Origin: an uncultured virus (IMG/VR IMGVR_UViG_3300018080_007205)
Taxonomy: Duplodnaviria; Heunggongvirae; Uroviricota; Caudoviricetes
Virus record (IMG/VR): IMGVR_UViG_3300018080_007205
DNA length: 64,000 bases
Strand: one strand, 5' to 3'
The number at the start of each line of letters is the position of its first letter. Within the stretch, counting starts at the first letter, position 1. This document shows positions 906 through 61,722 of this stretch, in pieces. Position numbers and translations under genes: made by a program. Below the pieces are notes generated by a model, which worked only from the letters and a program-made list of their open reading frames with translations, was not told the DNA's origin and did no database searches.

Positions 906-1285
906 AGCCTGATGTCAATCCCGTCTATCTCTTCGTCTCTGCCCGGCAGGAGCTTCTTGAACTCGTCGCGAACCTCCTGAACATCGCTATCCAGCAGCTC
1001 GTACGAGACCAGCGGCATCGATGCCGAGTCATGCCTGCTGTTCTCGCTCACGAACAGCGCCCGCCCGAACATCTCGTACTCTCCGGCATAACAGTCGAGA
1101 CAATGTACGAACCTCCCGCCATCATGCGCCTGCCTATCTCCGTATCGCTCGGAAACCGACGCATTGTGGTTGTCGATCTCCTCCCACTCCTCGTCGGTGG
1201 TTGCGGCATCCTCGTCCAGGAGCAGACCACCGAGCGGCTTGATGTCAGCGCCGACCATGACTATGTTCCGCCAGTTCACTCCCAT
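881..1285 (-). CDS. hypothetical protein
   Basis: 134-aa acidic ORF with upstream AAAGGAAA RBS. Confidence 0.65.
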   Translation of the reverse strand: MGVNWRNIVMVGADIKPLGGLLLDEDAATTDEEWEEIDNHNASVSERYGDRQAHDGGRFVHCLDCYAGEYEMFGRALFVSENSRHDSASMPLVSYELLDSDVQEVRDEFKKLLPGRDEEIDGIDIRLWVFTHHS

Positions 1286-1300
1286 AACGTTTCCTTTCTG

Positions 1301-1441
1301 TGCCCCCGCCAGGAATCGAACCTGGATCTCAGAAGATGCTTGTAGGCTCCGCAGCGTTGGTCCAGCAGGACCGAGTAAGAGAGCTGATGTTGCTCTTTTC
1401 AGGCTTGAATGGCCTGTGACCTACCATTGGTCTACGGGGGC
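1301..1441 (-). ncRNA. tRNA-like RNA (anticodon loop CATTCAA, Glu-TTC-like) with ~75-nt module in variable arm
   Basis: Acceptor GCCCCCG/CGGGGGC, D stem GACC/GGTC, anticodon stem CAGGC/GCCTG, T arm CCAGG-TTCGATT-CCTGG; insert carries ACTCGG and GCCTACAAGCA. Confidence 0.85.
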
Positions 1442-1447
1442 AAATTT

Positions 1448-1572
1448 GGCACGCGAGCGAGAGGGCTGGATGACGCAAAGGGCGGGATTTGAACCCGCGA
1501 CCTTCTGTTTATCATACAGACGCTCAACCAACTGAGCTACTTTTGCTTGTAGGCCCTGTTCTTCTGCGTGCC
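1448..1572 (-). ncRNA. tRNA-Ile(GAT)-like core (1475-1546) enclosed by outer helix carrying the shared module
   Basis: Cloverleaf core GCAAAAG...CCTTTGC, loop ATGATAA; flanks pair (GGCACGC/GCGTGCC, AGGGC/GCCCT) and include CTACAAGCA. Confidence 0.85.
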
Positions 1573-1575
1573 TAG

Positions 1576-1710
1576 CAGGGGAGGAAGGATTCGAACCTTC
1601 ATGTTTGCTTGTAGGCTTCAAATAATGGGTCTCGACAGACCCGAGTGGTGAAGCTGGATGCGTTACGCTGGTTTTGGTGTCCAGTGCCTAATCCATTCGG
1701 CCACTCCCCT
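1576..1710 (-). ncRNA. tRNA-like RNA (loop CACCAAA, CCA-like) with module in variable arm
   Basis: Acceptor AGGGGAG/CTCCCCT, D arm GCC..GGC, T arm GAAGG-TTCGAAT-CCTTC; insert CAGCTTCA..ACTCGGGTCT/AGACCCA..TGAAGCCTACAAGCA. Confidence 0.85.
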
Positions 1711-1784
1711 GAAAACTTATTCTAACCTTCCGGAAGCAACTGGGCCTCCTGAAAACTCTCTGCGCGGATCATCCGCTCACATTG

Positions 1785-1921
1785 TGGGGGAGGCAGGATT
1801 CGAACCTGCAAATGCTTGTAAGCTTTGAGTGGTGGCTCCGATGGAGCCGAGTGGCAAAGCGGTTGAACAGTGATGTTCTGACTCCAAATGTCAGCGCCTT
1901 TTCCAGTTTGGCCACTCCCCC
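1785..1921 (-). ncRNA. tRNA-like RNA (loop ATTTGGA, Gln-TTG-like) with module in variable arm
   Basis: Acceptor GGGGGAG/CTCCCCC, anticodon stem CTGAC/GTCAG, T arm GCAGG-TTCGAAT-CCTGC; insert GCTTTG..ACTCGGCTCC/GGAGCCA..CAAAGCTTACAAGCA. Confidence 0.85.
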
Positions 1922-1946
1922 AGTATTATTTAGACGCCAATTATCG

Positions 1947-2082
1947 TCCCCCCGGAGGGATTCGAACCCCCATCTCACGGGTTGCGCCGGCGACCGGAAT
2001 CGAACCGGCGTGCGCCATCGTCGGACGTCTGCATCCTACTCGCCAACAAAAGCCCGGTGTTCTGCCGTTGAACTACGGAGGG
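1947..2082 (-). tRNA. tRNA (probably Lys-TTT) with ~64-nt tRNA-like insertion in anticodon loop
   Basis: Acceptor CCCTCCG/CGGGGGG, D stem GTTC/GAAC, T arm GGGGG-TTCGAAT-CCCTC; removing 1984-2047 gives loop CTTTTAA (junction ambiguous). Confidence 0.75.
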
Positions 2083-2133
2083 ATATGGGAACTTTGTACC
2101 CCTCCATGCGTTTCAATCTATCCATCCTCATAC

Positions 2134-2400
2134 TTATCTCCTCACTCTGATACAGGCAATAGTTCTACACTTACGCCCGCACTTTTTTTGGCAGGCGTCA
2201 CGGGATGCCTTGTCCGCAACCTTCTTTGTGCGAGCCCATGCCGTCGCATCGCATTCGCCCTCATTGAATGCCGGAACCGACATACACACCCACGGTCTAC
2301 GCTGCTTGACTGCGGCGGTGGTTCTCACCGGCGCGCTCAGCATGATCAGCGCAGCTACAACAACAGCCATCAGTACAACAGTCATTGCTTTCTTTCTCAT
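2134..2400 (-). CDS. small secreted Cys-rich protein
   Basis: Basic N-terminus plus hydrophobic signal peptide; six Cys. Confidence 0.6.
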   Translation of the reverse strand: MRKKAMTVVLMAVVVAALIMLSAPVRTTAAVKQRRPWVCMSVPAFNEGECDATAWARTKKVADKASRDACQKKCGRKCRTIACIRVRR

Positions 2401-2420
2401 TCTCTTGCCTTTCTTTCCAG

Positions 2421-2507
2421 TGGGGGCCGAAGGAATCGAACCTCATGCCTGTACAGGAAGTGGGTTACAGCCACCTGCGGGACCATCCCGCCTTATTGGC
2501 GACCCCC
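2421..2507 (-). tRNA. non-canonical tRNA-Tyr(GTA)
   Basis: Anticodon arm GGTGG-CTGTAAC-CCACT, long variable arm CCTG/CAGG, TTCGATT T loop, A73; 6-bp D stem. Confidence 0.75.
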
Positions 2508-2515
2508 CCGAAATT

Positions 2516-2632
2516 GCCAAACCCCCCCTCCGACTCAGGACGCGCACGCGAGAGTCGCCGGACGTCATTCTCTTCGCGCTAGGGAATGCTCTCCGCCGAA
2601 GCGGCATATCCGGCATCCCATCAGGGTTCGGC
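2516..2632 (-). ncRNA. structured intergenic RNA of unknown class
   Basis: Terminal stem GCCGAACCC/GGGTTTGGC enclosing GCCGGA/TCCGGC, CCGC-TTCG-GCGG, CATTC/GAATG and GACTC/GAGTC helices. Confidence 0.55.
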
Positions 2633-2634
2633 AG

Positions 2635-2705
2635 AGACCGCGACGGGATTTGAACCCGTGTTGCCGCTTTTGCAGAGCGGTGCCTATCCTCTTGGCTACG
2701 CAGTC
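2635..2705 (-). tRNA. tRNA-Cys(GCA)
   Basis: Canonical cloverleaf, loop CTGCAAA, U73 discriminator; no encoded CCA. Confidence 0.95.
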
Positions 2706-2888
2706 TGATCTTCGCCTCCCGCATCCGGAAGCGGACACCACTCCGGTGGTATCACAAATGTGGCAACGCCATCACAATCCAGCCTACATATCGTATTCGG
2801 CCACCACATTTTGCCATCAACCTCTTTCGACCCACCACATATCGGCGTATCCCGATGAATACAATCTAGTGGTCATTTCCAGCCTTTC

Positions 2889-3932
2889 TTAAAACAAACC
2901 ATGCGGATGGCTCTCTCGCACGCCCGCGGCAGTCTGGCGCATAAACGCAGCATGCTTTCGGAAAGTATCCAGGTCACGAGCGTTCAAGTATGTCATTGAT
3001 GATCTGAGCCCTTCCTCTAGCGCCTTGAAAATTGGCTCAACAGATCCCTTGTATCGCACCTTCTTCCGCTCACCCTCAATGGCTCTAGCATAACCCTTCC
3101 AGCTCTCTTGCGCTTCTCTGGAAGCCATGCCGCGGTAGATCTTGTATGTGTTCCACTGATCTCCGCTCTCAGAAAATACCTTACCAGGGGTCTGCTCGGT
3201 ACCGGCAAAAAGACTGCCTACCATCACAGCATCCGCACCAGCCGCTATAGCCTTTGCGATATCACCGGACTGCCTGATGCCGCCGTCCGCTATCACAGTT
3301 ATCGGTCTGTCTGCTTTTCTTGCAACCTTCGACACATCGATGACGGCTGTGAGCTGTGGTATTCCCACTCCTGTTTGAATTCGCGTAGTACATAAGCTGC
3401 CTGGTCCTACGCCCACTTTCAAGCAATCAGCGCCAGCTCGAATGAGCCTATGGGCACCATCCTCCGTGGCGATGTTTCCAGCTATCACAGGAAGGGTCTT
3501 CCACTCCGACTCTTTCAGCCATCTTATTTGCTCTACCATGGCGTCGCTGTCGCCATGAGCAATGTCGACCAACACCGCGTCGCACTTCTCGCCTATTTCA
3601 TGCATGCGGTCCCTGGCACGGGCACCAACACCAATGCAGCCAACCTTCAGGATGCTGCCCAAGTCGTGTAGCTGTTTGCGCTGCTCCTCAGGAGTCATAA
3701 AACGATGGATAATTCCCAACCCGCCCATCTTATGAATCGCCCGCGCCATCCTGTCCTCTGTCACAGTGTCCATATTCGCAGAGATTATGGGGACAGAGAT
3801 GTATTTGCCTATCGTCGGAAATATGTTGGTGCGCGTACTGACCTCTTCTACGAACCGCGAACTGATCGTATTGTGTACGGGCACCAGCTGTACATCGTCA
3901 TACGTGAGACCTGTTTCTTCCAGAATTCGCAT
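2889..3932 (-). CDS. guaB: IMP dehydrogenase / GMP reductase family (no CBS domains)
   Basis: [14 protein letters not shown], catalytic loop [23 protein letters not shown]; start moved to MRILEE because upstream part overlaps tRNA-Leu. Confidence 0.88.
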
Positions 3933-3956
3933 AAGTTGCCGACTTTCTTGTTCATG

Positions 3957-4036
3957 TGCTGCCGAGAGGATTCGAACCTCCAACCTCCTGGTCCTGGTCC
4001 TGAACCAAGCGCCTCTTCCTGTTGGGCTACGGCAGC
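3957..4036 (-). tRNA. tRNA-Leu(CAG)
   Basis: Cloverleaf, loop TTCAGGA, variable arm, A73. Confidence 0.9.
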
Positions 4037-4043
4037 ACAAACT

Positions 4044-4077
4044 AAAAACGCCCTGGGTCCGCTAGGAGCCAGGGCGT
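4044..4077 (-). terminator. intrinsic terminator-like hairpin
   Basis: ACGCCCTGG/CCAGGGCGT followed by T run on minus strand. Confidence 0.6.
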
Positions 4078-4310
4078 CGAGGGAGACAGTTTCTGCGCGT
4101 CTTGCTACCCGCCCGGGCTCCTTGGATCCTGCTTCAGGGAGACGCACTCGTCGGCTACGATGGCATACGGTCCCTCGGGCAGGAGTCCTGCTTCGATGCT
4201 CGAGAAAACGCAATTGTCCCAGCAGCGACCAGCGCCGTGAGACGATGTATGCTGTTTTTGCGTTCTCAACATCGATGACATTGGAATCTCCAGACGGTTG
4301 AAAATGCTAA

Positions 4311-4432
4311 ACACGTGAGTGAGAGGGCTGGGTTGACGCAAGGACGGGGATTGAACCCGCTACCTTCTGTGTGTAAAACAGACGCTCTACCTGGTGAGCT
4401 ACATTGCTTGTGAGCCCTTTTCGGTTACGTGT
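4311..4432 (-). ncRNA. tRNA-Val(TAC)-like core (4338-4407) enclosed by outer helix carrying the shared module
   Basis: Same architecture as 1448-1572: ACACGT/ACGTGT, AGGGC/GCCCT, TCACAAGCA, CTCACTC; loop TTTACAC. Confidence 0.85.
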
Positions 4433-4439
4433 CTTGCCG

Positions 4440-4560
4440 TGGGGATGGAAGGAATCGAACCTTCATAACATTGCGTGTAGGCTTCAAATCGTGGCTCCCA
4501 AGGGAGCCGAGTGAGGAAGCTGAGTATAGCATCGGCTTTTCCAGTTTTGCCTACATCCCC
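4440..4560 (-). ncRNA. tRNA mimic lacking an anticodon arm (replaced by shared module)
   Basis: Acceptor GGGGATG/CATCCCC, D arm GGC..GCC, T arm GAAGG-TTCGATT-CCTTC; only the module lies between D and T arms. Confidence 0.85.
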
Positions 4561-4571
4561 AAATTATTTCG

Positions 4572-4681
4572 TGGAGGCGGAGGGAATCGAACCCCCTATT
4601 GTGCTTGTATGCTTCAAGCGTTGACCCTCCAGGGTCGAGTGGCGAAGCGGTATCAAACGTGATGATCCATTCATCGCCCCC
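4572..4681 (-). ncRNA. tRNA mimic with tmRNA-like ends (G3-U70), no anticodon arm, carrying shared module
   Basis: GGGGGCG/CGCCTCC-A, T arm GGGGG-TTCGATT-CCCTC; GCTTC..ACTCGACCCT/AGGGTCA..GAAGCATACAAGCA. Confidence 0.8.
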
Positions 4682-4687
4682 ATCTCG

Positions 4688-4759
4688 TAGCGGAAACCAG
4701 ATTCGAACCGACGACCTTCGGATTATGAGTCCGACGCGCTGCCTCTGCGCCATTCCGCA
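4688..4759 (-). tRNA. tRNA-Met(CAT), initiator-like
   Basis: Cloverleaf, loop CTCATAA, unpaired 1:72, GCGGAA/TTCCGC acceptor. Confidence 0.88.
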
Positions 4760-4896
4760 TCATCTGCCTTCCGTACCCATTACTATAGCTCACGGACAGG
4801 AAGGTCGACACTTTATGCTAAGAAAATTACAACTACGCATAATAAATACAGAAAACAATCCTGCAACGACGAACATAAAGGATTGCAAAAAACTTT

Positions 4897-4917
4897 GGAT
4901 GCATCAACGCGCGCGCG
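4897..4917. repeat. 21-bp intergenic motif GGATGCATCAACGCGCGCGCG, copy 1
   Basis: Identical to 37202-37222. Confidence 0.8.
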
Positions 4918-4919
4918 CG

Positions 4920-5201
4920 TTACTCATCGCACACCGGGCATACGCGCGACACTGATGTGAACAGCTGGACTTCCCTGGTCTCCGCGCCGCATTCAGGACA
5001 CGGATTCCCTGCCTGCTTTGCGTATATCAGAGAGACCCCCTTGGGCAAGGGTTCCACCTTTAGAATATGTCTGGCTATTCCTTGGTAATCTAGGAAAAAA
5101 TGTGCTGAGAAGGCGCGCTGTATCATGTACTTCTCGATCTCAGCAGCCATCCTTTCGTAAGCATTGATGCCTCTACTCATCCTCTTCGTCTTCTTCCACA
5201 T
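4920..5201 (-). CDS. hypothetical protein with C-terminal zinc ribbon
   Basis: CPECG...LFTSVSRVCPVC; similar tail in 12135..12377. Confidence 0.65.
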   Translation of the reverse strand: MWKKTKRMSRGINAYERMAAEIEKYMIQRAFSAHFFLDYQGIARHILKVEPLPKGVSLIYAKQAGNPCPECGAETREVQLFTSVSRVCPVCDE

Positions 5202-5757
5202 TCATCGATGGCAGGCACTCGATCGCCCGCGAAGTGTCGTACTCCGCAACCACGGTGACTCCGCATACCTCGGCAGCTGCGGTGCCGTCATCCATCTCCA
5301 TCCACTGGCTCTGCTCGGTCAGATCAGGATTGTTGTTCCTGAGCCTGGCCGCCAGCGCCAAAGCCTCCTCAAATGTTTCAGCCTCGACCTCGGCGCACAT
5401 CTCATACACCTCTTCCCAGCTGACGCTCCACTTCTTGCGGCAGTCCGGAACCGTGACCGTCTGGTTGACTAAGCGCGGATCGCCAGTGCTTACTATCTCG
5501 AACTTGACATCCAGCGGAGACCCGTCCTCAACACTGGCATAGTCGACCTTCACCTCTCCCTCGGGGTCGGACTTGGCAACCTTGATCGCTTCAGCCACTG
5601 CATCGTCCGCAGGTTTGAAAACCTTCATGTTCTTTTCCTCCTCAGAGCACATGCGGCATTTGCCGAGCTTGCGCCCGTGTCGGCACATGCCGTTGGTTAA
5701 GAGCCACAAAAAGAAGCGCGCTTCTTCGTCAGGATGCGACATCCGAACTTTCCTCAA
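5173..5757 (-). CDS. hypothetical acidic protein (start may be 5628)
   Basis: ORF fills gap; GAGGAGG RBS precedes MKVFKP. Confidence 0.6.
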   Translation of the reverse strand: MRKVRMSHPDEEARFFLWLLTNGMCRHGRKLGKCRMCSEEEKNMKVFKPADDAVAEAIKVAKSDPEGEVKVDYASVEDGSPLDVKFEIVSTGDPRLVNQTVTVPDCRKKWSVSWEEVYEMCAEVEAETFEEALALAARLRNNNPDLTEQSQWMEMDDGTAAAEVCGVTVVAEYDTSRAIECLPSMNVEEDEEDE

Positions 5758-13819: not shown

Positions 13820-15586
13820 TTAGCCGTATCCGTCTTCGCTTTTCTTTTCTTTCGGTCTGGCTGCCCTGATGAGCCTGACCAGCTTGCCGTGCTTCCCCCT
13901 AATTGCGCATCCGGCGGCGAACGGATGCCCCCCGCCGCCCATTGCCTTTGCGATCTCCGACACGTCCAGCCTCTGGTTGGACGTGCGCAGCCTGACCTCT
14001 CCACCTGGTGATATGAGACACACGGATTCGCTCATGCGGGACATGATGGACATGATGTCGGTGATTGCCCACGACGGAACAGGTTCGCTGATCCGCACTA
14101 TCATGAACCCGTTGCGGCACCTGGACGTCCTTGCAGACTGCATGGCCGACAGGACGATGCCGCTGTTGATCTGGTCGACGACCCACACCGTCTCCTGGGC
14201 TATGCTGTCCTCGACGTCCAGCGTGGTCAGAAGCTGCGCCATTTCGGACATTCTCCTTCTAAACAGCGTATCGCCGTAGATGCCGGCTATCAGTATGTCG
14301 TCCCTGATGCCGAAGCACCTGACGAGGATCCCGGCGGTGCTGCACATGTCGATTACGAACACGCCGTTCTCCGGGTCGTGCTTTTTTATCCTGGTGGCGT
14401 GGTGGTCGATATTTAAGATTGGAAGGTCTCCGACTTCCCACCCGATGCGTTCTTTTTCCCATCCGGAATCCAGCACGATTATCTGTTCGGCGTCCTCCGG
14501 CATTTTTTTGAACGACGCTTCTGGCGGCACCATGTCCGCCAAGTTGGAAGGCATGTCGCCCTCCAGCCTGATAGACGACGGCACTCCGTGCTCCGCGAGG
14601 TGCCTGTGAACTGCCACGCACGACGACACCGCATCGGCGTCTGGGTGCGCATGCGCCGTTATAACCGATTTTCTTAGGGGAATGGCATACAGTTTCGTGC
14701 GTTTTTCGATGATGTCTGCAATCTGGTCCGGTGCGGTGACGACCTCCCACAATAATCCGCATTCTATATAGTGCCTAATTTTTGGATGGTCTTCGTCGTA
14801 GGGCGGCTTGCGCGACTGACCAAGTCCATCGACTTCGACCCATACCTCGGTGTTATTGTTAAGGTACACGATAAAGTCGCAACTCCACCAACGCTTGTAT
14901 GTGATTCGCACATCCCCGGCGTATCCGCGGATTTTTCTTGACAACTTCATGGCGAAAAGCTCATCCGCAACGAGCATATTCAGGTTCGACGCGTATTGTT
15001 TGCCATCTTGACCAGTATACTCCGGTCTGCCCTTGTCCTTGCGTATTGACTCGTAGTCCAGGCCGCAAGCCTCAAGCGTCTTTTTCCACGACCCCAGGAA
15101 CTTCTCAGCAGCCCTGAGAAGCTTTGGATGGCGGTAGTAGGCATGCTTGTAGTTCAGCGGCTCAGATGCGTCCTGAAGCTCTCTGACAGCCTCCAGTACC
15201 CTGTTCCTGTCCCACTCAGGCTCTTCGGACGCAACGCCAGCCTGCTCCAAGGCGGAATTCCACGACCCGAACTCCCGCTTGGCGGCACTGTACAGCCCCG
15301 AGGCGCTTTTTCCTATTGTTTCCGGAGAGATATCTTTGCCAGCAAGCGACAGTCTTCCTATCTCCGCAATAATGCGACCTTTTGTCCAATTGTGCGTCGC
15401 CTTGAGTTCGTAGTCGACCCCGCATGACTCAAGAGCCTTGCGCCACGATCCGAACACAGAGCGTGCAGAACCGTACAGGGAAGGATATTCCTCCCTGATT
15501 GCCCCGCCGCCGAGATAGACCCCGTCCGCATCCAGCGCCTTGATGGAAGCGCGGATCTTCTCTTTCGACCATACGCTGCTGTTCAT
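13820..15586 (-). CDS. fusion: helical DNA-binding repeats + PD-(D/E)xK-like nuclease + DHH/DHHA1 phosphoesterase
   Basis: Three FGSW..AL...G repeats; CDFIV...WVEVDG; HAHPDADA, IDHH, GDT, GGGGH. Confidence 0.8.
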   Translation of the reverse strand: MNSSVWSKEKIRASIKALDADGVYLGGGAIREEYPSLYGSARSVFGSWRKALESCGVDYELKATHNWTKGRIIAEIGRLSLAGKDISPETIGKSASGLYSAAKREFGSWNSALEQAGVASEEPEWDRNRVLEAVRELQDASEPLNYKHAYYRHPKLLRAAEKFLGSWKKTLEACGLDYESIRKDKGRPEYTGQDGKQYASNLNMLVADELFAMKLSRKIRGYAGDVRITYKRWWSCDFIVYLNNNTEVWVEVDGLGQSRKPPYDEDHPKIRHYIECGLLWEVVTAPDQIADIIEKRTKLYAIPLRKSVITAHAHPDADAVSSCVAVHRHLAEHGVPSSIRLEGDMPSNLADMVPPEASFKKMPEDAEQIIVLDSGWEKERIGWEVGDLPILNIDHHATRIKKHDPENGVFVIDMCSTAGILVRCFGIRDDILIAGIYGDTLFRRRMSEMAQLLTTLDVEDSIAQETVWVVDQINSGIVLSAMQSARTSRCRNGFMIVRISEPVPSWAITDIMSIMSRMSESVCLISPGGEVRLRTSNQRLDVSEIAKAMGGGGHPFAAGCAIRGKHGKLVRLIRAARPKEKKSEDGYG

Positions 15587-15606
15587 AATTTCCTTTTGGA
15601 AGGATG

Positions 15607-15903
15607 CTACATGTTTTCTGACAAAAAGCGGTCTATTTCTTCCTGAGAACGCAGACCTGTCAGGCGCGCGCACATACACCCCTTGTCCCTGACCAGGACA
15701 AGAGTTGGAATGGACCTTATACCGTATTTCACGGCAACTGACGGGTCCTCGTCTATATTGACGCTTTCCAGCTTGACCCCGCCGTGCTTTTCCATAACCG
15801 ACTCCAGAACGGGAGCTATTGCCTTACAGGGGGCGCACCACGGTGCCCAGAATTTCAACAGGAGGGGCTTGTCCTTTTTTTCAACACCGGCATCAGTTGC
15901 CAT
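15607..15903 (-). CDS. trxA: thioredoxin
   Basis: FWAPWCAPCK, IRSIPTL; GGAGG RBS before 15903. Confidence 0.93.
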   Translation of the reverse strand: MATDAGVEKKDKPLLLKFWAPWCAPCKAIAPVLESVMEKHGGVKLESVNIDEDPSVAVKYGIRSIPTLVLVRDKGCMCARLTGLRSQEEIDRFLSENM

Positions 15904-18916: not shown

Positions 18917-22171
<3,255 letters not shown>

Positions 22172-22198: not shown

Positions 22199-24631
22199 TC
22201 ATTTTCCGGGTCCCATCTCGTACAGGAACTTCCGCACATTCTCAATTTTCCTGCTCTTCGGCACACCGCTCGGGAGGCTCGCAAGGAAAATCCCGCCATA
22301 CGGCTTGACGGCTATCCTCTGGTCCAGCACCACCACGACTCCCCTGTCGCTCATGCTGCGTATCAGCCGCCCGAATCCCTGCTTGAAAGCGATTACGGCC
22401 CGGGGAACGCTGTACGACATGAACCAGCTGTCGCTCCTGGCTGAGATGGCATCCAGGACTGGGTCGTCCGGCGTGGGAAACGGCAGTCTGTCGATCACGA
22501 CGCACGACAGGGAGTCTCCCGGCACGTCCACTCCGGCCCAGAACGACTCCGTTCCCAGCAGCACGGAATCCTTGTCGCTTCTGAACATTTCCACAAGCGA
22601 GGTTCTGGGAGCCTCGCCCTGCCTCATGACGCTCTGTTTGAGCCCTGCAGCCAAGGCGGTCTCGTGCGCCAGCGCAAGGTTCTTGTACGATGTGAACAGT
22701 CCCAGCACGCGCCCGCGAGCCAGCTTGATGGTTTCGACAACGGCATCGGCGACTGCCTGCGGGTACTTGGTCCTGTCAGTGGGCATGGGCATTCCGTCCG
22801 GCACGATCAGCAGCGCCTGCTCTTGGAACCTGAATGGGCTGTCCACTACCAGCTCGTCGGCGACCGCGCATCCCAGCTCGTTTTTCAAATGCCCGAACCT
22901 CCCGTTGACCGCAAGCGTCGCAGATGTCGTAACAACGCTTTTGGAAGACTTGAAGAGCGCCTCGTCCAGCATCGCGCTGACGGAAATGGGTTTCCCCTTC
23001 AGCACAACCGCCTTGTTGCTCTGGATTTCCTCCAGGAAATACACTTCGTTGCTTTCAGCCAGCGTCATTGCGGCGCGGACGTTTCCGGCGATCCGGGCGG
23101 CTGCAGCCGCCGCCTTGGCGTACGATGCCTTCTCATCCCGCTCTACAGCGTTGATCATGGCGCTTCTGAACACCAGCCTGACCTTGTCAAGGGATTCGCA
23201 CAGCGGCTTCCACGCCACGCCCTTCGGCGGCTTCTTGAGCCGTGTTTTGTACTGGCGCGACCTGTACAGCTTCCCGAGGTCGTAGAACATCTGCGACGAC
23301 TGCTCCTTGAGATCCCGGTACAGCCTGGACGGGTCCTCCTCCCCCTCGGCGTGCCGCAGCTTGCTGAGCGGGCTGGCCGCGAATGTGATGCTGCGTTCAG
23401 ACACCCTGAATCCGAAAAAGTCCCTGGCTATGTCCGCCGCCTTGTGCCCTTCGTCGCAGACCACAAAGTCGTAGTCCGGCAGCACGGAAGCCGTACCATC
23501 AGAGGACATGCGGACCTTCAGGTCCGCGAACAGGAGATGGTAATTCGTCACGAACACATTGGCGGACGATGTGCCAGCCTTTGCTCTTTCCGCATAGCAC
23601 TCATCGCGCGACTTGCAGTCGCTGCCCTTGCACTCGTCGCTCGTAACGGAGAACATCCGCCAGATGTCGCCGTACGGCTCGAAGTCCAGCTCGGACTTGT
23701 CCCCGGCGCGCGTGGCGCGCCCCCATTTGATTATGTCGCGGTACTGCTTGAGCCTGACCCTGCTGCTGCGCCCCTTGAGGCTGCTGTCACTCTGCTCCGA
23801 CTGCCAGCGGTCGACGCACAGGTAGTTGTTCCTCCCCTTGATGAGGGCGAACGTGAAATCGATCGGCAGCGCTTTCTTGAGGAACGGCAGGTCCTTGCAG
23901 AACAGCTGCTCTTGCAGGGCGATGTTGGCGGTTACTATTGCAACTTTGACATTTTGCTGTACTGAGCAGTAGGCGGCAGGTATACCATAGGCTATGGACT
24001 TGCCTGTATTGTGCGTCACTGTGAAATCATCTAGTAGATATCTACCATCGCCATCCAACGAAAACCCGAAATAGTCTTCAATCTTTCCGGTCCTCGAAAC
24101 AGAGAATCCTGTTCTTAGAACATTTTTTTTCTCAACTCTGAAAAGTTGATAAATATGTTTTCGGCTTGTCGACCATTCTTCCCATTCTCTAATCGGCACA
24201 TCCAAAACCTCTCCGTCTCTATAATCCTTGCTGCCGGTTTCTATGGGTGGTTTCGTGTTAGTGCGAACAAGCGTTAGGATGTGGCTCCTATTCACGCGCC
24301 ATGCGTTTCCCTTGGTGGGGATGATGTCAACCATTTCTTCACGACCACGGCAGAGCGATAGTACGGTTCTGGCATGGTCATCTGGTCCCATGAGTTTGTC
24401 GCCGACTATAATGTCCTCTACCGTTTTAAGAGACCCGTCGTACATAAGAATTTTCTGACCGGCAGCATGACATCCGGTCGGTCCCTCAACCATCAGATGG
24501 CGACTCTCCCGGAACGACCTGTCAACCGCCCTTGCCATCTCCACCTGTCCGGGGCGCGGCTGATAGTCGTCGAAATGCTTGGAGAGTATGCCGCCCGGAC
24601 CGAACACTTCCGCTATGTATCTTGGCTCCAT
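22199..24631 (-). CDS. DinG/YoaA-family helicase containing an intein
   Basis: RPGQ Q-motif, EGPTG|TGKS Walker A, KGRNNYLC, FeS Cys, DEGH, TSATL, FWAGVDVPG, QGFGRLIRS. Confidence 0.95.
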   Translation of the reverse strand: MEPRYIAEVFGPGGILSKHFDDYQPRPGQVEMARAVDRSFRESRHLMVEGPTGCHAAGQKILMYDGSLKTVEDIIVGDKLMGPDDHARTVLSLCRGREEMVDIIPTKGNAWRVNRSHILTLVRTNTKPPIETGSKDYRDGEVLDVPIREWEEWSTSRKHIYQLFRVEKKNVLRTGFSVSRTGKIEDYFGFSLDGDGRYLLDDFTVTHNTGKSIAYGIPAAYCSVQQNVKVAIVTANIALQEQLFCKDLPFLKKALPIDFTFALIKGRNNYLCVDRWQSEQSDSSLKGRSSRVRLKQYRDIIKWGRATRAGDKSELDFEPYGDIWRMFSVTSDECKGSDCKSRDECYAERAKAGTSSANVFVTNYHLLFADLKVRMSSDGTASVLPDYDFVVCDEGHKAADIARDFFGFRVSERSITFAASPLSKLRHAEGEEDPSRLYRDLKEQSSQMFYDLGKLYRSRQYKTRLKKPPKGVAWKPLCESLDKVRLVFRSAMINAVERDEKASYAKAAAAAARIAGNVRAAMTLAESNEVYFLEEIQSNKAVVLKGKPISVSAMLDEALFKSSKSVVTTSATLAVNGRFGHLKNELGCAVADELVVDSPFRFQEQALLIVPDGMPMPTDRTKYPQAVADAVVETIKLARGRVLGLFTSYKNLALAHETALAAGLKQSVMRQGEAPRTSLVEMFRSDKDSVLLGTESFWAGVDVPGDSLSCVVIDRLPFPTPDDPVLDAISARSDSWFMSYSVPRAVIAFKQGFGRLIRSMSDRGVVVVLDQRIAVKPYGGIFLASLPSGVPKSRKIENVRKFLYEMGPGK
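24008..24472 (-). mobile_element. mini-intein (155 aa) in helicase Walker A
   Basis: Starts CHAAGQ, block-B-like NRSHILT, ends VTHN before +1 Thr; no endonuclease domain. Confidence 0.93.
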
Positions 24632-24993
24632 CAGCCTTGCTCTTCCATATCGTGCGACGACCTCATTTTTGACGACTGGATAGTATCGATGATTGTTTTC
24701 CTGAGATCGGATCCGGCCGGCGTCGTGTCCTTGATAAGGTGGCTGAAGCACGGCATACACAAAGTAAGCGTGTCATGGATGCTGGTGTCGGAATCCGCCC
24801 CCTTCCCGTTGAAGAAGTGGATGTCCAGCACGCACCGCCACACGTGGTCGGTACAGATATCGCAAGTACACGCATCGCACGGTCGCGACTCAGCGCGCTT
24901 GCCGCATGCCGGAATGTCGCATTTGCGGTACGTGACAGTTTCCGTGATCTCCATCTCAATCACCCTGCTGTTCGTTGCTGTTTTCCGAGACAC
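24631..24993 (-). CDS. hypothetical Cys/His-rich protein
   Basis: CDIPAC, CDAC, CTDH, CMPC. Confidence 0.6.
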   Translation of the reverse strand: MSRKTATNSRVIEMEITETVTYRKCDIPACGKRAESRPCDACTCDICTDHVWRCVLDIHFFNGKGADSDTSIHDTLTLCMPCFSHLIKDTTPAGSDLRKTIIDTIQSSKMRSSHDMEEQG

Positions 24994-59120: not shown

Positions 59121-60488
59121 CTATAAAACGCGGTCTCTGCTGGACCGCTTCTTTGCGTCGGCGCGCAATTTGGACCGCGTTTTTGCCTTGATGTCCGACA
59201 TTTCAGCCACACGGCGCATCTGTTTGATCTGAGACGGCAGCGGATCAAATCCTATCACGGATACGCGTTTGACTATTTCCTTCAAATAGGCACCTGTCAT
59301 TCCATCAGTAAGGGTTGACAGGTCTTCCATCTGGTCTTTGGTTAATTCAACATCCAGATGTTTAGCATAGGCTTCTAGGATTTTTTTACGCAGCCTCTTG
59401 TTCGGAGCCTTGAACTCAACAATTTCGTCGAACCTACCCGGTCTTCTGAGCGCCTTTGGAACATCCTCGACATCGTTAACCGTAGCTATGATCAGGCGGT
59501 TCCTGTTGTTTCTGACGCGTCTATTCAACTGCTCGATTTCGTTTAGCATATCTTCGGGACGCCACACCCTGTCCATATCGTCGAATAGGACAACCGCCGG
59601 ATCAACCATTTCGATGATGTTCTCTAGCGCATTGAACTTCAGTTGATCCAGGCTTTTTGGGCTGACAACCAAGAGCTTCCCCTCCATGCGACCGGCTATT
59701 CTGGCGGCTAGCGTTGTTTTCCCAGAACCTGGCGGACCGAAGAACAGCAACGACCTGTTGATGTTGAGCATATAGAACTTGTTGATATTTTGTACAAGCT
59801 CGCTTTCGTCAATGTGACTGACATACACCTCACTGCCGAGGTCCAGGTCCGTCAGGTATGGAGAGTTATCCCAGTTCTTCACCATGGTTTCGATGGATAT
59901 CACGGATCCCATGTGTTCCTCTACGAGCTGGGAAAATGCATTGACAAAGCGCTTCTTGTTCAAGACCCACGGTCCGCGCACGCGTTCGTAATCTTCATCG
60001 TTCTTCTGTAGGCAGAAATATACCTTTTCTCCGTGAATTTCGTACTCTTCGATTTTTTCCGGATCTTCCCCGTCCTTATGCTCCTCCTCCTCCCACAATT
60101 TCCTACATGGTATGTCAAGGTTCTTGAATGTCAGGTGCGTAAATCCGCTCATGGACGGGAATACAAGCGATGCGCCAAGCTCCTTCATCTTGTCCTGGCT
60201 GGACTCACCCTCGCCTTCGAAGATGTCGGCAACTATGCCGTAGGTCGAAAGTGCCCCCAGACCGATCGATATGGGATCCTTCCGCTTTACAGCCCAATAC
60301 ACATACAGTGCTTCCCTAGCCGCTGCGGCTATCTTGCTGATGGTCTTGTGGACTTTGCGCTGCTTTGACTTGGATGTTGCGCGTCTGATAAAGGGAGACT
60401 TCTCAACAACCTGTTCGACCCCTTCCAACTCTTTCCTTCCGGCTATGTACGACACAAGACTGAAGTCAGTCATCACGCCTCCGTTCAT
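59121..60488 (-). CDS. AAA+ ATPase (paralogue of 39049..40455)
   Basis: GPPGSGKT, VLFDDMDR, ATVND, RRPGRFD. Confidence 0.9.
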   Translation of the reverse strand: MNGGVMTDFSLVSYIAGRKELEGVEQVVEKSPFIRRATSKSKQRKVHKTISKIAAAAREALYVYWAVKRKDPISIGLGALSTYGIVADIFEGEGESSQDKMKELGASLVFPSMSGFTHLTFKNLDIPCRKLWEEEEHKDGEDPEKIEEYEIHGEKVYFCLQKNDEDYERVRGPWVLNKKRFVNAFSQLVEEHMGSVISIETMVKNWDNSPYLTDLDLGSEVYVSHIDESELVQNINKFYMLNINRSLLFFGPPGSGKTTLAARIAGRMEGKLLVVSPKSLDQLKFNALENIIEMVDPAVVLFDDMDRVWRPEDMLNEIEQLNRRVRNNRNRLIIATVNDVEDVPKALRRPGRFDEIVEFKAPNKRLRKKILEAYAKHLDVELTKDQMEDLSTLTDGMTGAYLKEIVKRVSVIGFDPLPSQIKQMRRVAEMSDIKAKTRSKLRADAKKRSSRDRVL

Positions 60489-61722
60489 CTCTCACAAGTT
60501 TCCGCACGAGCGCTTTGAGGCGGTCCCACTTGCTGTCGTATATGAGGAACATCATCGTCTTGATAACCGAATGCTGGCGCACGGCAATGGCTGCGAAGCC
60601 TTTGCGATGCTCCTTGGTCCCTGGAAGAGGCGGATCCTTCTTGCGCGCAACTGCCGCAAACATAACGTCCGCCGACGCCTCGCCGGCCTTTTTGCCAGCC
60701 TCGCACATCCATGCCCTGGCATCTTCGACAGCGGCTGTGTACCTGGCATACAGCTCTTTGGCCGACTCGATGATTTCCCAGTCATAGTCACATTTTTTCA
60801 AGTACTCAGCCAGATCATCCTCGGAACCGATGTTCGACATCTCCGCAAACTCTGTAATCGTGGAGTACTTCATGTTGGACTTCAGCCTGTGGTGCGCCAA
60901 GTACCAGGCGCTCTTAACCTTAACTAGGATCGTGTTTCCGCGCTCGTCGAAGCATCTTGTAACCACACCCTCCGTCTTCCAGTCGCGCACCTCCGACATC
61001 AGCTCCGCCGGGTTCCTGGGAAGTTCCTCGCGCCTAACCAGGTTGAGACCGCCGGACTTGGCTGCCATCTCCAAATAACTCCAGTCAGCAAGCTTAGGGG
61101 TCGGGTGCTTCATTTCGTAGCTGTCCGGAATCATGTTCTTAGGGTATGTCAGGACTGCGCCGACGAGCACCAGGTCCGGCTCGCCGTACCTCACCACTAT
61201 CGTATTGTCGGGAGCGACATACTCGAAAAGGAGCGAGTCCATGCGCCAGCATGTCGGATCCAGCAGTTTAGGGTACTTCTTCTCCGCCACGGCGCGGAAG
61301 CGCTCTGAGAACGTCGGTCCCCTGTCATCCATGGATGACTCTCCGAACAGAGTTCCGCGAGTGCGCATGACAACCTTGCCATCGATCACCGACCGTATAC
61401 AGAGAGTTCCGTCCTCTTTGTGCGTGAACAGGACGCGCCCTTCAGAGAGTGCTCTGTTCAGGATCTCCGTGTCCTCTTGAAATTCCCCATAATTGCCGAA
61501 CTTGGGAAACGAGCAGGACACCACGATTCCCTTGTGGTTCACCATCACGGACCTGAGCCAGCGCTCCTCCGGCACCCAGTCCCACTTGTTCTTTTTCGGA
61601 CAAACCAGCGTCAGCAGGCTGTCGTCATCCTTGACTATCTTGAATTCGCTCGTGCTGATCTTATTCAGATCAAGCCTGAGGTCGTCGTCAGTCCTGTGCC
61701 ACATATTTACTTGCCTCCCCAT
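60466..61722 (-). CDS. T4 Rnl1-like RNA ligase
   Basis: SFPKFGNYGE, KEDGT, LLFEY, EGVV, KVKSAWY. Confidence 0.88.
   Translation of the reverse strand: MGRQVNMWHRTDDDLRLDLNKISTSEFKIVKDDDSLLTLVCPKKNKWDWVPEERWLRSVMVNHKGIVVSCSFPKFGNYGEFQEDTEILNRALSEGRVLFTHKEDGTLCIRSVIDGKVVMRTRGTLFGESSMDDRGPTFSERFRAVAEKKYPKLLDPTCWRMDSLLFEYVAPDNTIVVRYGEPDLVLVGAVLTYPKNMIPDSYEMKHPTPKLADWSYLEMAAKSGGLNLVRREELPRNPAELMSEVRDWKTEGVVTRCFDERGNTILVKVKSAWYLAHHRLKSNMKYSTITEFAEMSNIGSEDDLAEYLKKCDYDWEIIESAKELYARYTAAVEDARAWMCEAGKKAGEASADVMFAAVARKKDPPLPGTKEHRKGFAAIAVRQHSVIKTMMFLIYDSKWDRLKALVRKLVRDERRRDD

What the first reader, a model, noticed from the sequence alone, without database searches (positions are those of the whole stretch)
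1301..4681. Family of seven tRNA-scaffolded ncRNAs sharing one portable non-tRNA RNA module
Seen: seven tRNA-shaped genes (1301, 1448, 1576, 1785, 4311, 4440, 4572) contain the same module on the minus strand: C(A/C)GCY-stem / 2-4 nt / ACUCG + GC-rich hairpin / CA + 4-7 nt / stem-GC / (C)UACAAGCA. The helices differ in sequence but keep pairing (GCTC/GAGC, GCTTCA/TGAAGC, GCTTTG/CAAAGC, GCCCT/AGGGC; apical GGTCC/GGACC, GGGTCT/AGACCC, GGCTCC/GGAGCC, GACCCT/AGGGTC). The internal-loop nucleotides are nearly invariant. The module sits at three different positions of the cloverleaf. Inference: it is a protein-binding or processing element carried on tRNA scaffolds. The closest known concept is the bacterial Y RNAs (YrlA, tRNA mimics with a Ro60/Rsr-binding bulged helix), but no Ro60/TROVE gene is in this window and the topology differs. 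Possible roles are decoys for host anticodon nucleases or adaptors for a phage RNP.
Basis: partly seen in the sequence, partly recalled or inferred. Interest (0 to 1): 0.95.

Follow-up and report, generated by a model that had tools for sequence, protein, structure and literature searches.

The report
Intron-like RNA module in phage tRNAs
A huge phage carries a conserved, folded RNA element of about 55 bases that sits exactly at the joints of its tRNA genes (inside them, around them, and in related phages around tRNA genes written back to front), which looks like an undescribed kind of tRNA intervening sequence.

Summary
On the minus strand of 1301-4681 lie five contiguous copies of one RNA module and two split copies that bracket tRNA-Ile and tRNA-Val. 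The module has two covarying helices (P1, P2) and invariant single-stranded letters: ..CC, NCUCG, YNACA(A/C)|GC.

It matches no Rfam family. It recurs in the huge-phage contigs I fetched, and in none of 100 pattern-matching loci from cellular genomes.

The G after ACA(A/C) is always a tRNA landmark. It is nucleotide 1 in 14 units and the first base of the variable loop in about 42. Removing the module in silico gives a tRNA call in 28 of 31 units, against 0 of 31 before removal. Relatives also hold nine circularly permuted tRNA genes bracketed by the same module.

Best reading (about 0.5): an intron-like processing element whose helices bring two cut sites together, working like archaeal bulge-helix-bulge introns but with a different motif and no EndA. 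Nuclease and ligase are unknown.

Main rival (about 0.3): the module is kept as a protein handle or clamp, as in YrlA. The YrlA order and some letters do resemble it, but Rfam scores are far below threshold and no Ro60 gene is present.

No RNA data exist. I found no prior description.

The parts
1301..1441 (-). Unit E1: tRNA-shaped gene (Glu UUC after in-silico removal) with the module inserted after the anticodon arm
   Evidence: Rfam tRNA 51 bits with a long insert. ARAGORN calls Glu(UUC) in 16 of 27 cut variants, and nothing without removal.
1335..1388 (-). Module copy in E1 (P1 GCUC/GAGC, P2 GGUCC/GGACC, UUACUCG, CUACAA|GCA; the G after ACAA is at 1339)
   Evidence: Model R1 36.6 bits, E 5.7e-6. 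Junction G at 1339, 14 nt before the T stem.
1448..1473 (-). Trailer half of the split module around tRNA-Ile: linker UCAUCCA, P1 5' strand GCCCU, CUCGCUCG, P2 5' strand GCGUGCC
   Evidence: Read. The P2 strand GCGUGCC pairs with leader GGCACGC (7 bp; 4 of 200 shuffles as good). The minimum-energy fold encloses the tRNA.
1474..1546 (-). tRNA-Ile(GAU), ordinary cloverleaf, no CCA encoded; nt 1 (G1546) follows CUACAA directly
   Evidence: ARAGORN. Rfam 67 bits. 48 nt from G to the T stem.
1547..1572 (-). Leader half of the split module around tRNA-Ile: P2 3' strand GGCACGC, J AGAAGAAC, P1 3' strand AGGGC, CUACAA
1576..1710 (-). Unit E2: tRNA-shaped gene (Trp CCA after removal) with the module after the anticodon arm
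   Evidence: Rfam tRNA 39.6 bits. ARAGORN calls Trp(CCA) in 13 of 27 variants.
1604..1658 (-). Module copy in E2 (P1 GCUUCA/UGAAGC, P2 GGGUCU/AGACCC; junction G at 1608)
   Evidence: R1 75.2 bits; this copy was used to build the model. The minimum-energy fold shows P1 and P2.
1785..1921 (-). Unit E3: tRNA-shaped gene (Gln UUG after removal) with the module after the anticodon arm
   Evidence: Rfam tRNA 49.9 bits, above gathering. ARAGORN calls Gln(UUG) in 21 of 27 variants.
1811..1864 (-). Module copy in E3 (P1 GCUUUG/CAAAGC, P2 GGCUCC/GGAGCC; junction G at 1815, 6 nt before the T stem)
4309..4336 (-). Trailer half of the split module around tRNA-Val: linker UCAACCC, P1 AGCCCU, CUC ACUCA, P2 5' strand ACGUGUUU
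   Evidence: Read. P2 of 8 bp with leader AGACACGU; P1 AGCCC/GGGCU. Fold.
4337..4407 (-). tRNA-Val(UAC), ordinary cloverleaf; G4407 follows CACAA
4408..4434 (-). Leader half of the split module around tRNA-Val: AGACACGU, AACCGAAA, AGGGCU, CACAA
4440..4560 (-). Unit E6: acceptor, D arm and T arm of a tRNA, with the module at about nt 38/39 of the anticodon arm
   Evidence: Sequence. ARAGORN calls a tRNA in only 4 of 27 variants, with an unstable anticodon. The placement at 38/39 is my manual parse: 10 nt from G to the T stem, read as 5 nt of stem plus 5 nt of variable loop.
4470..4524 (-). Module copy in E6 (P1 GCUUC/GAAGC, P2 GGCUCCC/GGGAGCC, CUACAC|GCA; junction G at 4474)
   Evidence: R1 71.1 bits; this copy was used to build the model.
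4569..4681 (-). Unit E7: acceptor stem with G3·U70, T arm, and the module where the anticodon arm should be; not a tRNA after removal
   Evidence: tmRNA model matches the two ends only, 30.2 bits, below gathering 47. ARAGORN 0 of 27 variants.
4600..4652 (-). Module copy in E7 (P1 GCUUCG/UGAAGC, P2 GACCCU/AGGGUC, AUACAA|GCA; junction G at 4604)
   Evidence: R1 68.9 bits; this copy was used to build the model.
60466..61722 (-). T4 Rnl1-type RNA ligase gene (possible sealing enzyme; link to the module is inferred only)
   Evidence: Pfam RNA_lig_T4_1, E 1.9e-9. PHROG 562, RNA ligase, E 7e-28.
21548..22171 (-). P-loop kinase of the polynucleotide-kinase type (possible end-healing enzyme; inferred only)
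   Evidence: Pfam AAA_33, E 3.6e-22. PHROG 505, polynucleotide kinase, E 6e-12.

Best explanation
The module is an intron-like processing element of phage tRNA precursors. Helices P1 and P2 form either within one stretch (the insert type) or between a leader and a trailer (the split type). In both cases they bring two junctions of the precursor side by side.

Proposed cuts:
- One cut falls right after the invariant ACA(A/C), just 5' of a G that is tRNA nucleotide 1, nucleotide 44, or in one case about nucleotide 39.
- The other cut falls in the A/C-rich linker between the tRNA body and the 5' strand of P1.

Proposed outcomes:
- Around tRNA-Ile and tRNA-Val the two cuts simply release the tRNA, which then needs CCA addition.
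- In the insert type (1301, 1576, 1785, perhaps 4440) the two tRNA parts are then joined. This gives tRNA-Glu(UUC), Trp(CCA) and Gln(UUG).
- In the permuted genes of related phages joining would circularise the tRNA, and RNase P plus 3' trimming would open it at the acceptor end.

Shown: the structure, its covariation, its spread in huge phages, and the exact coincidence of its 3' edge with tRNA landmarks in all three gene layouts.

Inferred: that cutting and joining happen at all, and who does them. Candidates are an unknown nuclease or the RNA itself, and for joining a ligase such as the Rnl1 and kinase encoded in this window, or a host RtcB.
For: Structure.
- 12 of 12 pairs of P1 and P2 show changes on both sides.
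- 92.8% of cells pair against 64% in shuffles and 33-52% when partners are slid (31 sequences).
- The same holds on 68 distinct copies found independently through a neighbouring gene: 91.9% against 63%.
- G·U pairs outnumber A·C 69 to 16 in 82 distinct copies, so pairing is on the tRNA sense strand.

Invariant letters in the 68 distinct copies:
- CUC 100%, ACA 100%, the junction G 100%;
- the C before P1 97%.

Junctions, in 14 sources.
- The G after ACA(A/C) lies 46-48 nt before the T stem in the window's two enclosed tRNAs and 41-48 nt across all 14 enclosed tRNAs (13 of them at 46-48, one at 41). It therefore equals nt 1.
- In 42 other units it lies 3-20 nt before the T stem. The counts are 5 nt (14 units), 6 nt (8), 7 nt (8), and 9-20 nt (6 units), at least three of which (L178, L180) hold a hairpin that looks like a class II variable arm. 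This is roughly the length distribution of tRNA variable regions.

In-silico removal with the 3' edge fixed at that G gives an ARAGORN tRNA call across the joint in 28 of 31 units. Without removal the figure is 0 of 31. Of the 28 units with a call, 24 receive three-letter anticodons, 19 of them different, and four get two- or four-letter loops.

Split form.
- 22 of 23 open units (14 enclosing a whole tRNA, 9 enclosing a permuted tRNA) have a leader-trailer P2 of 6-12 bp, with a different sequence in each.
- 19 of the 23 are matched by at most 4 of 200 shuffles.
- An example of compensation: GAAGCAACC/GGUUGCUUC against GAAGCGACC/GGUCGCUUC.

Permuted genes.
- Nine units have the T arm and the acceptor 3' strand upstream of their own acceptor 5' strand, separated by the discriminator base and 3 to 12 further nt.
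- They need some processing to be tRNAs at all.

Other points.
- Minimum-energy folds of single units give cloverleaf plus P1/P2, or P1/P2 around the tRNA, with z scores from -2.3 to -3.5.
- The window encodes an Rnl1-type ligase, a PNK-type kinase and a phosphoesterase.
Against: - No RNA evidence of any kind exists: no RNA run holds this DNA.
- No nuclease candidate was found. EndA is in 0 of 5 genomes and MazF/PemK in 0 of 5.
- No ligase is universal. RtcB is in 2 of 5 near-complete module-bearing phage genomes. Rnl2 gives one weak match in 5. The Rnl1 searches were silent, controls included.
- The 5' edge is not defined. Linkers vary from 6 to 17 nt and share only a terminal C-rich end, so precise joining is hard to picture.
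- Three of 31 units give no tRNA after removal, among them the window's 4569-4681. Four more get anticodon loops that are not 7 nt.
- Several module-bearing tRNAs lack U33 (my reading).
- In five related phages the module is confined to one small cluster of 2-4 contiguous copies, while 29-49 ordinary tRNA genes lie elsewhere.
- In one of those phages two clustered anticodons (Arg UCU, Asn GUU) duplicate ordinary genes.
- A sealed 7-bp acceptor stem is known to be opened by RNase P and given CCA in M. smegmatis YrlA (passages of PMC4201824). Permuted units could therefore work as two-piece RNAs held by P1/P2, without any cutting at the module.
- Both alignments used for the pair counts were fitted to the model, which favours the structure.
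Confidence: 0.5

Rival explanations
1. The module is kept in the mature RNA. It acts as a protein-binding handle or as a clamp, like the terminal bulged stem of bacterial Y RNAs (YrlA).
- Insert-type units would be tRNAs or tRNA mimics with an extra arm.
- Permuted units would be opened by RNase P at the sealed acceptor and stay as two pieces held together by P1/P2.
- Around tRNA-Ile and tRNA-Val the paired leader and trailer would be a handle on the precursor, or would be released as a small duplex RNA.
Only ordinary enzymes are needed (RNase P, 3' trimming, CCA addition).
For: - The YrlA consensus has the same order of parts as the permuted units. It also shares CUAc before the V loop and AcUuG in the 3' internal-loop strand.
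- The YrlA model touches the permuted units at 28.1 and 22.8 bits.
- RNase P cleavage and CCA addition of a sealed acceptor are documented for M. smegmatis YrlA (passages of PMC4201824).
- No new nuclease or ligase is required, and none was found.
- Unit 4569-4681 has no anticodon arm and is not a tRNA after removal.
- The module cluster is separate from the main tRNA arrays and partly redundant with them.
- P2 is often capped by a GNRA-type loop, as in stable structural RNAs.
Against: - YrlA scores are far below the gathering score of 69 and cover only the tRNA-like part. Dimeric tRNAs are a known source of false positives, according to the paper's own methods passage.
- TROVE is in 0 of 5 genomes and in none of the window's 63 scanned ORFs.
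- The module is tethered by long unpaired linkers rather than stacked on the tRNA.
- Class II tRNAs keep their own variable arm downstream of the junction, so such tRNAs would carry two extra arms.
- The conserved GC(A) is paired in the acceptor stem in one layout and unpaired in the variable loop in the other. That is odd for a binding site but natural for a cut site.
- Around Ile and Val the module must come off anyway for the tRNA to work.
- At 4440 a retained module would break the anticodon arm.
Confidence: 0.3
2. The module is a new small self-cleaving, and possibly self-joining, RNA. It acts at ACA(A/C)|G and needs no protein for the cut. This is a special case of the best explanation.
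For: - About a dozen invariant unpaired nucleotides surround two short helices, with a variable, even openable, peripheral helix P2. Natural circular permutation is typical of small ribozymes.
- No nuclease candidate was found.
- HDV-like theta ribozymes next to phage tRNAs set a precedent (abstract of PMC10879173, seen in the listing).
Against: - No hit to any ribozyme family of Rfam at E up to 10 in 1200-4900.
- I could find no conserved pairing partner for CUCG or ACAAGC (by eye).
- Two cuts are needed, but there is only one conserved junction motif.
- Nothing was tested at the bench.
Confidence: 0.12
3. It is a DNA-level repeat, such as a recombination site or a miniature mobile insertion, that happens to land in and between tRNA genes and has no role as RNA.
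For: - Several copies lie in one small region, and copies are portable between positions of the cloverleaf.
- Homing endonuclease genes sit nearby in relatives.
Against: - G·U pairs outnumber A·C 69 to 16.
- All 76 copies next to the ThiF-like gene are on its strand and downstream of it.
- Helices covary while the loop letters stay fixed.
- Leader and trailer pair across a whole tRNA with unit-specific sequences.
- The edge coincides with tRNA nt 1 or nt 44 to the base.
Confidence: 0.03

Closest known systems
Archaeal and eukaryal bulge-helix-bulge (BHB) tRNA introns, including split tRNAs and circularly permuted tRNA genes
   Same: One RNA motif is used at several positions of the cloverleaf, between a leader and a trailer, and around permuted genes. 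The motif brings two junctions together. Removal restores a canonical tRNA.
   Different: There is no BHB geometry: the junctions lie in 6-17-nt linkers on either side of P1. Sequence letters are invariant, which BHB does not require. No EndA was found in 0 of 5 phage genomes. The carriers are huge tailed-phage-like contigs, and the one related GenBank record is classed as Caudoviricetes. Cutting and joining are not shown.
YrlA, bacterial Y RNA (Rfam RF02553; Chen et al. 2014, PMC4201824, passages read)
   Same: A tRNA-like body is joined to a stem with conserved internal loops. The permuted relatives have the YrlA order: stem, CUAC, V loop, T arm, sealed acceptor, D arm, stem. The letters CUAC and ACU(U/C)G are similar.
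   Different: Scores are 19-28 bits against 69. No Ro60/TROVE gene is present. A complete anticodon arm is present in most units. The stem leaves the body at the variable loop or the acceptor end, not at the anticodon stem. The window's units are not permuted.
The 'enigmatic' tRNA introns of Lak megaphages (Devoto et al., preprint 10.1101/356790, passages read; Table S6 of PMC6784885 searched)
   Same: Inserts in tRNA genes of huge phages, with unknown splicing. The authors note that such tRNAs may be common in large phages.
   Different: Lak inserts lie in the anticodon loop, and some hold a nested tRNA. ACAAGCA does not occur in their Table S6. The window's other insert, at 1947-2082, is of the Lak type; the module is not.
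Two-piece tmRNA from permuted ssrA genes (recalled)
   Same: A permuted gene whose product could stay in two pieces held by base pairing. Unit 4569-4681 has a tmRNA-like acceptor with G3·U70 and a T arm.
   Different: There is no tag reading frame and there are no pseudoknots. The score is 30.2 bits against 47. The unit is 113 nt long.
HDV-like theta ribozymes beside phage tRNAs (PMC10879173; abstract start seen in a search listing)
   Same: A small structured RNA directly attached to phage tRNAs, proposed to shape tRNA ends.
   Different: No HDV-like fold or Rfam hit. The module also lies inside tRNAs, and upstream as well as downstream of them.

Membership tests
YrlA / bacterial Y RNA (RF02553) | Rfam covariance model at or above its gathering score (69 bits) | tested here: not met
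   19 and 20.2 bits in the window. 28.1 and 22.8 bits on permuted units of L117, covering model positions 29-81 only.
YrlA / bacterial Y RNA (RF02553) | Ro60/Rsr (TROVE) gene in the same genome, usually adjacent | tested here: not met
   No TROVE among 63 window ORFs. 0 of 5 near-complete module-bearing phage genomes; the control rang in D. radiodurans. A host Rsr cannot be excluded.
YrlA / bacterial Y RNA (RF02553) | tRNA-like domain in the order V loop, T arm, sealed acceptor, D arm, with the RNA's ends in a bulged stem | tested here: inconclusive
   Met by 9 permuted units in 6 related loci. Not met by any of the window's seven units.
YrlA / bacterial Y RNA (RF02553) | Conserved YUAY at the start of the V loop (as stated in PMC4201824) | tested here: met
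   Y/N-U/C-A-C-A precedes the variable loop, and ACA is invariant in 68 distinct copies.
BHB tRNA intron system (EndA plus ligase) | Two 3-nt bulges separated by a 4-bp helix at the splice sites | tested here: not met
   The consensus structure has a 4-6-bp P1 flanked by unpaired linkers of 6 nt (3' side) and 6-17 nt (5' side).
BHB tRNA intron system (EndA plus ligase) | Splicing endonuclease EndA (PF01974) | tested here: not met
   0 of 5 genomes; the control rang in four archaea. None among the window's 63 ORFs.
BHB tRNA intron system (EndA plus ligase) | Same motif serves introns at several positions, leader-trailer junctions and permuted genes | tested here: met
   33 insert-type, 14 enclosing a whole tRNA, 9 enclosing a permuted tRNA, and 1 unassigned, in 14 sources (with two labels corrected by hand). 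This is a likeness of logic, not of family.
Group I self-splicing tRNA introns | Core of about 200 nt or more with P3-P8, and a terminal G | tested here: not met
   The module is about 55 nt and ends in A. No Rfam intron hit at E up to 10.
Known small self-cleaving ribozymes (hammerhead, twister, twister-sister, pistol, hatchet, HDV-like, hairpin) | Match to the family's Rfam model | tested here: not met
   None listed at E up to 10 in 1200-4900, nor at E up to 1 in L117 2800-4000.
tmRNA (for unit 4569-4681) | tRNA-like ends plus tag reading frame and pseudoknots; gathering score 47 bits | tested here: not met
   30.2 bits from the two ends only, with 70 nt in place of 328 model positions.
Circularly permuted tRNA genes | 3' part (T arm, acceptor 3' strand) encoded upstream of the 5' part, the two acceptor strands complementary and joined by a short linker | tested here: inconclusive
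   Met in 9 units of L117, L152, L155, L165, L173 and L185 and in GenBank KX853510.1 (read by eye). Not met by any unit of the window.
Lak-type phage tRNA introns | Insert in the anticodon loop, some holding a nested tRNA | tested here: not met
   The module lies at 43/44 or 73/1. ACAAGCA is absent from Table S6 of PMC6784885.

The most novel reading that the evidence does not exclude
The module is a new class of small catalytic RNA that cuts at ACA(A/C)|G and re-joins the flanks. On this reading huge phages of bacteria would have a protein-independent way to splice, release and circularise tRNAs, including tRNA genes written in permuted order.
Probability: 0.12. Interest if true: 0.97.

Novelty: new variant of a known kind. 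Interest (0 to 1): 0.82.

Why it matters
Known tRNA intervening sequences are of two kinds: group I introns in bacteria and organelles, and bulge-helix-bulge introns in archaea and eukaryotes. Permuted tRNA genes are known from a few algae and one archaeal lineage (recalled).

This would be a third kind of tRNA intervening element, with its own sequence motif, in viruses of bacteria. It comes with what look like the first permuted tRNA genes of phages. I found no earlier description. If the splicing reading is right, an unknown nuclease, or a new ribozyme, and a joining activity are waiting to be found.

It would also explain why tRNA finders miss genes in huge phages. ARAGORN saw 5 of the 12 tRNA-shaped genes in this array. 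A GenBank record holds two unannotated units.

If the retained-handle reading is right instead, it extends Y-RNA-like tRNA mimics to phages that have no Ro60. Either way the covariance model makes the question testable.

Tried and rejected
- No RNA holder listed for 1280-4800. Only two DNA runs were found, one probably the source.
- The first, looser pattern scan of viral contigs gave 116 loci. I judged all of them chance matches, using a script's stem and T-loop filter plus inspection of the roughly 60 best-ranked rows.
- blastn of 1290-1930 against deposited phages found only ordinary tRNAs similar to tRNA-Ile.
- Search for a trans-acting guide complementary to both conserved strands: only the antisense of the modules themselves and two chance-level hits in coding DNA.
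- tblastn of all window ORFs of at least 60 aa against 13 module loci. Apart from reading frames laid over the tRNA and module DNA itself, the hits were a ThiF-family protein (five loci), a helicase (L167) and an APS kinase (L185). There was no shared nuclease.
- The VWA-domain protein beside the L167 cluster was checked as a possible diverged Ro60: no PDB relative.
- ORF 5173-5757, just upstream of the window's array, is not a ThiF relative. PHROGs gave no hit for the seven small ORFs in and around the array.
- Rnl1 searches in five genomes, by family and by the window's own protein, were silent and so were the controls. They are uninformative.
- MazF/PemK was tried because ACA and UAC are MazF-type sites (recalled): 0 of 5.
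- I looked by eye for pairing of the variable J2/1 strand with the 5' linker, or of CUCG with the T loop. Nothing was consistent.
- The earlier findings of this scan held nothing at this place or for this sequence.
- No whole genome is held for the window.

Full report
WHAT IS THERE

The minus strand of 1300-4760 is a tRNA array of a huge phage. The window also encodes a TyrRS-like enzyme, ribosomal protein S21, Cpn60, Lon, ClpP, a PARP-like protein, a TnpB-like protein and an Rnl1-type RNA ligase.

ARAGORN finds five ordinary tRNAs: Ile GAU, Cys, Leu CAG, Val UAC and Met.

The Rfam tRNA model also spans three genes with an insert of about 65 nt after the anticodon arm: 1301-1441, 1576-1710 and 1785-1921. 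It spans 1947-2082 with a different 67-nt insert in the anticodon loop. The tmRNA model touches only the ends of 4569-4681. No Rfam family matches the inserts at E up to 10.

THE MODULE

Read as RNA, the module runs as follows:
- an A/C-rich linker ending in CC;
- the P1 5' strand (4-6 nt);
- two or three pyrimidines, then (A)CUCG;
- the P2 hairpin;
- 6-10 poorly conserved nt that usually start with A;
- the P1 3' strand;
- one nucleotide, then UACA(A/C), then GCA.

Five copies are contiguous (1335-1388, 1604-1658, 1811-1864, 4470-4524, 4600-4652). They are the only hits of a covariance model in the whole window. The simple pattern occurs 4 times against 0.14 expected.

There the module is split and circularly permuted:
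- The leader carries the P2 3' strand, the joining strand, the P1 3' strand and YACAA. tRNA nucleotide 1 follows at once.
- The trailer carries a 7-nt linker, the P1 5' strand, CUC-(G/A)CUC(G/A) and the P2 5' strand.
- Leader and trailer pair: 7 and 8 bp in P2.
- Minimum-energy folds enclose the cloverleaf in P1/P2.

IT IS A FAMILY

A pattern that adds the T loop found 75 viral loci. I gave 29 of them, picked by eye from a script's listing, to the model together with the window. The model gave 31 hits at E up to 1. Five are the window's own copies and 26 lie in 13 of the 29 loci, nearly all in contigs of 100-500 kb.

Covariation:
- All 12 pairs show double-sided changes.
- 92.8% of cells pair, against 64% in shuffles and 33-52% with slid partners.

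A second, independent route started from a ThiF-like gene that lies next to the cluster in relatives:
- 72 loci hold that gene.
- 39 of them carry at least one contiguous module.
- All 76 hits are downstream of the gene and on its strand.
- On the 68 distinct copies, 91.9% of cells pair against 63% in shuffles. CUC, ACA and the junction G are invariant.

G·U pairs outnumber A·C 69 to 16. Both alignments were fitted to the model, which favours the structure.

Of 120 pattern matches in bacterial and archaeal genomes I screened 100. None holds the module; there was one 18-bit hit away from the pattern match.

THE JUNCTION RULE

In the window and the 13 loci I listed every YACA(A/C)G site that is followed by a T arm.
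- In 14 units the G lies 41-48 nt before the T stem (13 of them at 46-48) and opens an acceptor stem. It is nucleotide 1 of a complete tRNA, and each of these trailers has an xCUC(G/A) motif. Nine of these rows were mislabelled by my script's acceptor test, and I corrected them by hand.
- In 42 units the T stem follows within 3-20 nt. The counts are 5 nt (14 units), 6 nt (8), 7 nt (8), and 9-20 nt (6 units), at least three of which hold a hairpin that looks like a class II variable arm. The G is then the first base of the variable region.
- Nine of these 42 are permuted. The T arm and the acceptor 3' strand are followed, after the discriminator base and 3 to 12 further nt, by the matching acceptor 5' strand, D arm and anticodon arm, and then by the module's 5' half. 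One window row, 4604, was wrongly flagged as permuted by a G·U-tolerant match.
- Among the 23 open units, 22 have a leader-trailer P2 of 6-12 bp with unit-specific sequences.

Cutting the module out in silico, with the 3' edge at the G and 27 trial 5' edges, gives an ARAGORN call across the joint in 28 of 31 units. Before removal the figure is 0 of 31. Of the 28 units with a call, 24 receive three-letter anticodons (19 different ones); four get two- or four-letter loops; three give nothing, among them the window's 4569-4681. ARAGORN tolerates many 5' edges, so the 5' cut site cannot be placed this way.

HOW IT MOST LIKELY WORKS

One motif sits at the acceptor end, at 43/44, and once at about 38/39 (my manual parse of 4440-4560). 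It also brackets permuted genes. Its 3' edge coincides with a tRNA landmark to the base.

This is the logic of archaeal bulge-helix-bulge processing. My best reading is therefore an intron-like processing element:
- P1 and P2 juxtapose two cut sites.
- The cuts release tRNA-Ile and tRNA-Val.
- The cuts excise the insert from the Glu, Trp and Gln genes.
- A ligase joins the parts.

The window has an Rnl1-type ligase, a PNK-type kinase and a phosphoesterase.

Nothing of the chemistry is shown, and the case has real gaps:
- No RNA data exist.
- EndA is in 0 of 5 genomes, MazF in 0 of 5, RtcB in only 2 of 5, and Rnl2 gives one weak match in 5. The Rnl1 searches were uninformative.
- The 5' linker is variable.
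- Some units are not tRNAs after removal.
- Several lack U33.
- In five near-complete relatives the module is confined to one cluster of 2-4 contiguous copies plus open units, while 29-49 ordinary tRNAs lie elsewhere.
- In one of them, Arg UCU and Asn GUU of the cluster duplicate ordinary genes, whereas Ser GGA does not.

THE MAIN RIVAL

The Rfam YrlA consensus has the order of the permuted units and similar letters at two places. M. smegmatis YrlA is opened by RNase P at its sealed acceptor and then receives CCA (passages of PMC4201824).

A retained module would need no new enzyme. It could be a protein handle, or a clamp that holds a two-piece tRNA together.

Against it:
- YrlA scores of 19-28 bits against 69.
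- No TROVE gene.
- Long floppy linkers.
- Class II tRNAs that keep their own variable arm.
- A conserved GCA that is paired in one layout and unpaired in the other.
- The need to remove the module from Ile and Val in any case.

I give splicing or processing about 0.5 (of which about 0.12 for a ribozyme), retention about 0.3, a DNA-level element about 0.03, and leave the rest open.

WHAT IS KNOWN

I saw listings only, apart from passages of two papers. I found no description of this motif or of permuted tRNA genes in phages.

Devoto et al. reported 'enigmatic' tRNA introns in Lak megaphages and guessed they are common in large phages. Their Table S6 contains no ACAAGCA, and their inserts lie in the anticodon loop. 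That is a different element; the window's 1947-2082 resembles it.

GenBank KX853510.1 (Virus Rctr197k) holds an unannotated permuted unit and an unannotated enclosed tRNA downstream of its ThiF-like gene (read by eye).

VERDICT

This is a real, conserved, RNA-level module in huge phages, and I found no prior description of it. Its function is not shown. It is most likely a new variant of tRNA intervening or processing element.

Noticed in passing
window 1947-2082 (-): A tRNA (anticodon loop reads as Lys UUU) with a different 67-nt insert in the anticodon loop. The insert has its own T-arm-like hairpin and short acceptor-like pairing. It resembles the Lak megaphage 'intron that encodes a possible tRNA'. 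RNase P and RNase Z acting on the inner tRNA-like part would leave ends that an Rnl1-type ligase can seal (inference).
   Followed up: partly
window 2422-2507 (-): A tRNA-Tyr(GUA)-like gene with a class II variable arm and an extra GC hairpin in the D-arm region. ARAGORN misses it. Rfam gives only 23.5 bits, to tRNA-Sec.
   Followed up: no
window 1301-1441 and 1576-1710; L117, L155: Several module-bearing tRNAs lack the near-universal U33: A33 in the Glu and Trp units here, and G33 or C33 in relatives. Four relatives have anticodon loops that are not 7 nt.
   Followed up: partly
L312-L383 (for example L312 123-3154): In related huge phages the module cluster lies directly downstream of a conserved same-strand block: a ~320-aa protein (40 loci), a ~130-aa protein with a weak Prok-JAB match (36 loci), an ~85-aa protein (33 loci) and a ~195-aa ThiF-like adenylyltransferase (59 loci). 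This looks like a ubiquitin-like conjugation or sulphur-carrier operon. The window has no such ortholog next to its array; its ThiF-family gene at 47951-48826 is of the PRTRC type.
   Followed up: partly
L117 3864-3956 (+): A bacterial-type small SRP (4.5S) RNA gene, at 57.7 bits above gathering, follows the last permuted tRNA unit directly.
   Followed up: no
L117 about 2890-2960 (+): An 'empty' split module: leader half, CACAA|GC, about 11 nt, then the P1 5' strand, UCUCG and the P2 strand, with no tRNA in between.
   Followed up: no
L117 3628-3744; L152 2412-2511: P2 can be extended to 12 bp and carry 45-60 extra nucleotides. P2 is therefore a tolerant, peripheral helix.
   Followed up: partly
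L384 5190-5660 (GenBank KX853510.1, Virus Rctr197k): A deposited virus record holds a permuted tRNA unit and a module-enclosed tRNA(CAC) with an 11-bp leader-trailer helix. Neither is annotated.
   Followed up: partly
window 22199-24760 (-), 13820-15679 (-), 29813-30916 (-): A helicase with a Hint/intein domain, a DHH phosphoesterase with a homing-endonuclease-associated repeat, and a TnpB/Cas12f-like gene. Selfish elements are frequent in this phage.
   Followed up: no
window 2889-4040 (-): The longest frame of the IMPDH/GMP-reductase gene overlaps tRNA-Leu 3956-4036. The true start is probably further downstream.
   Followed up: no
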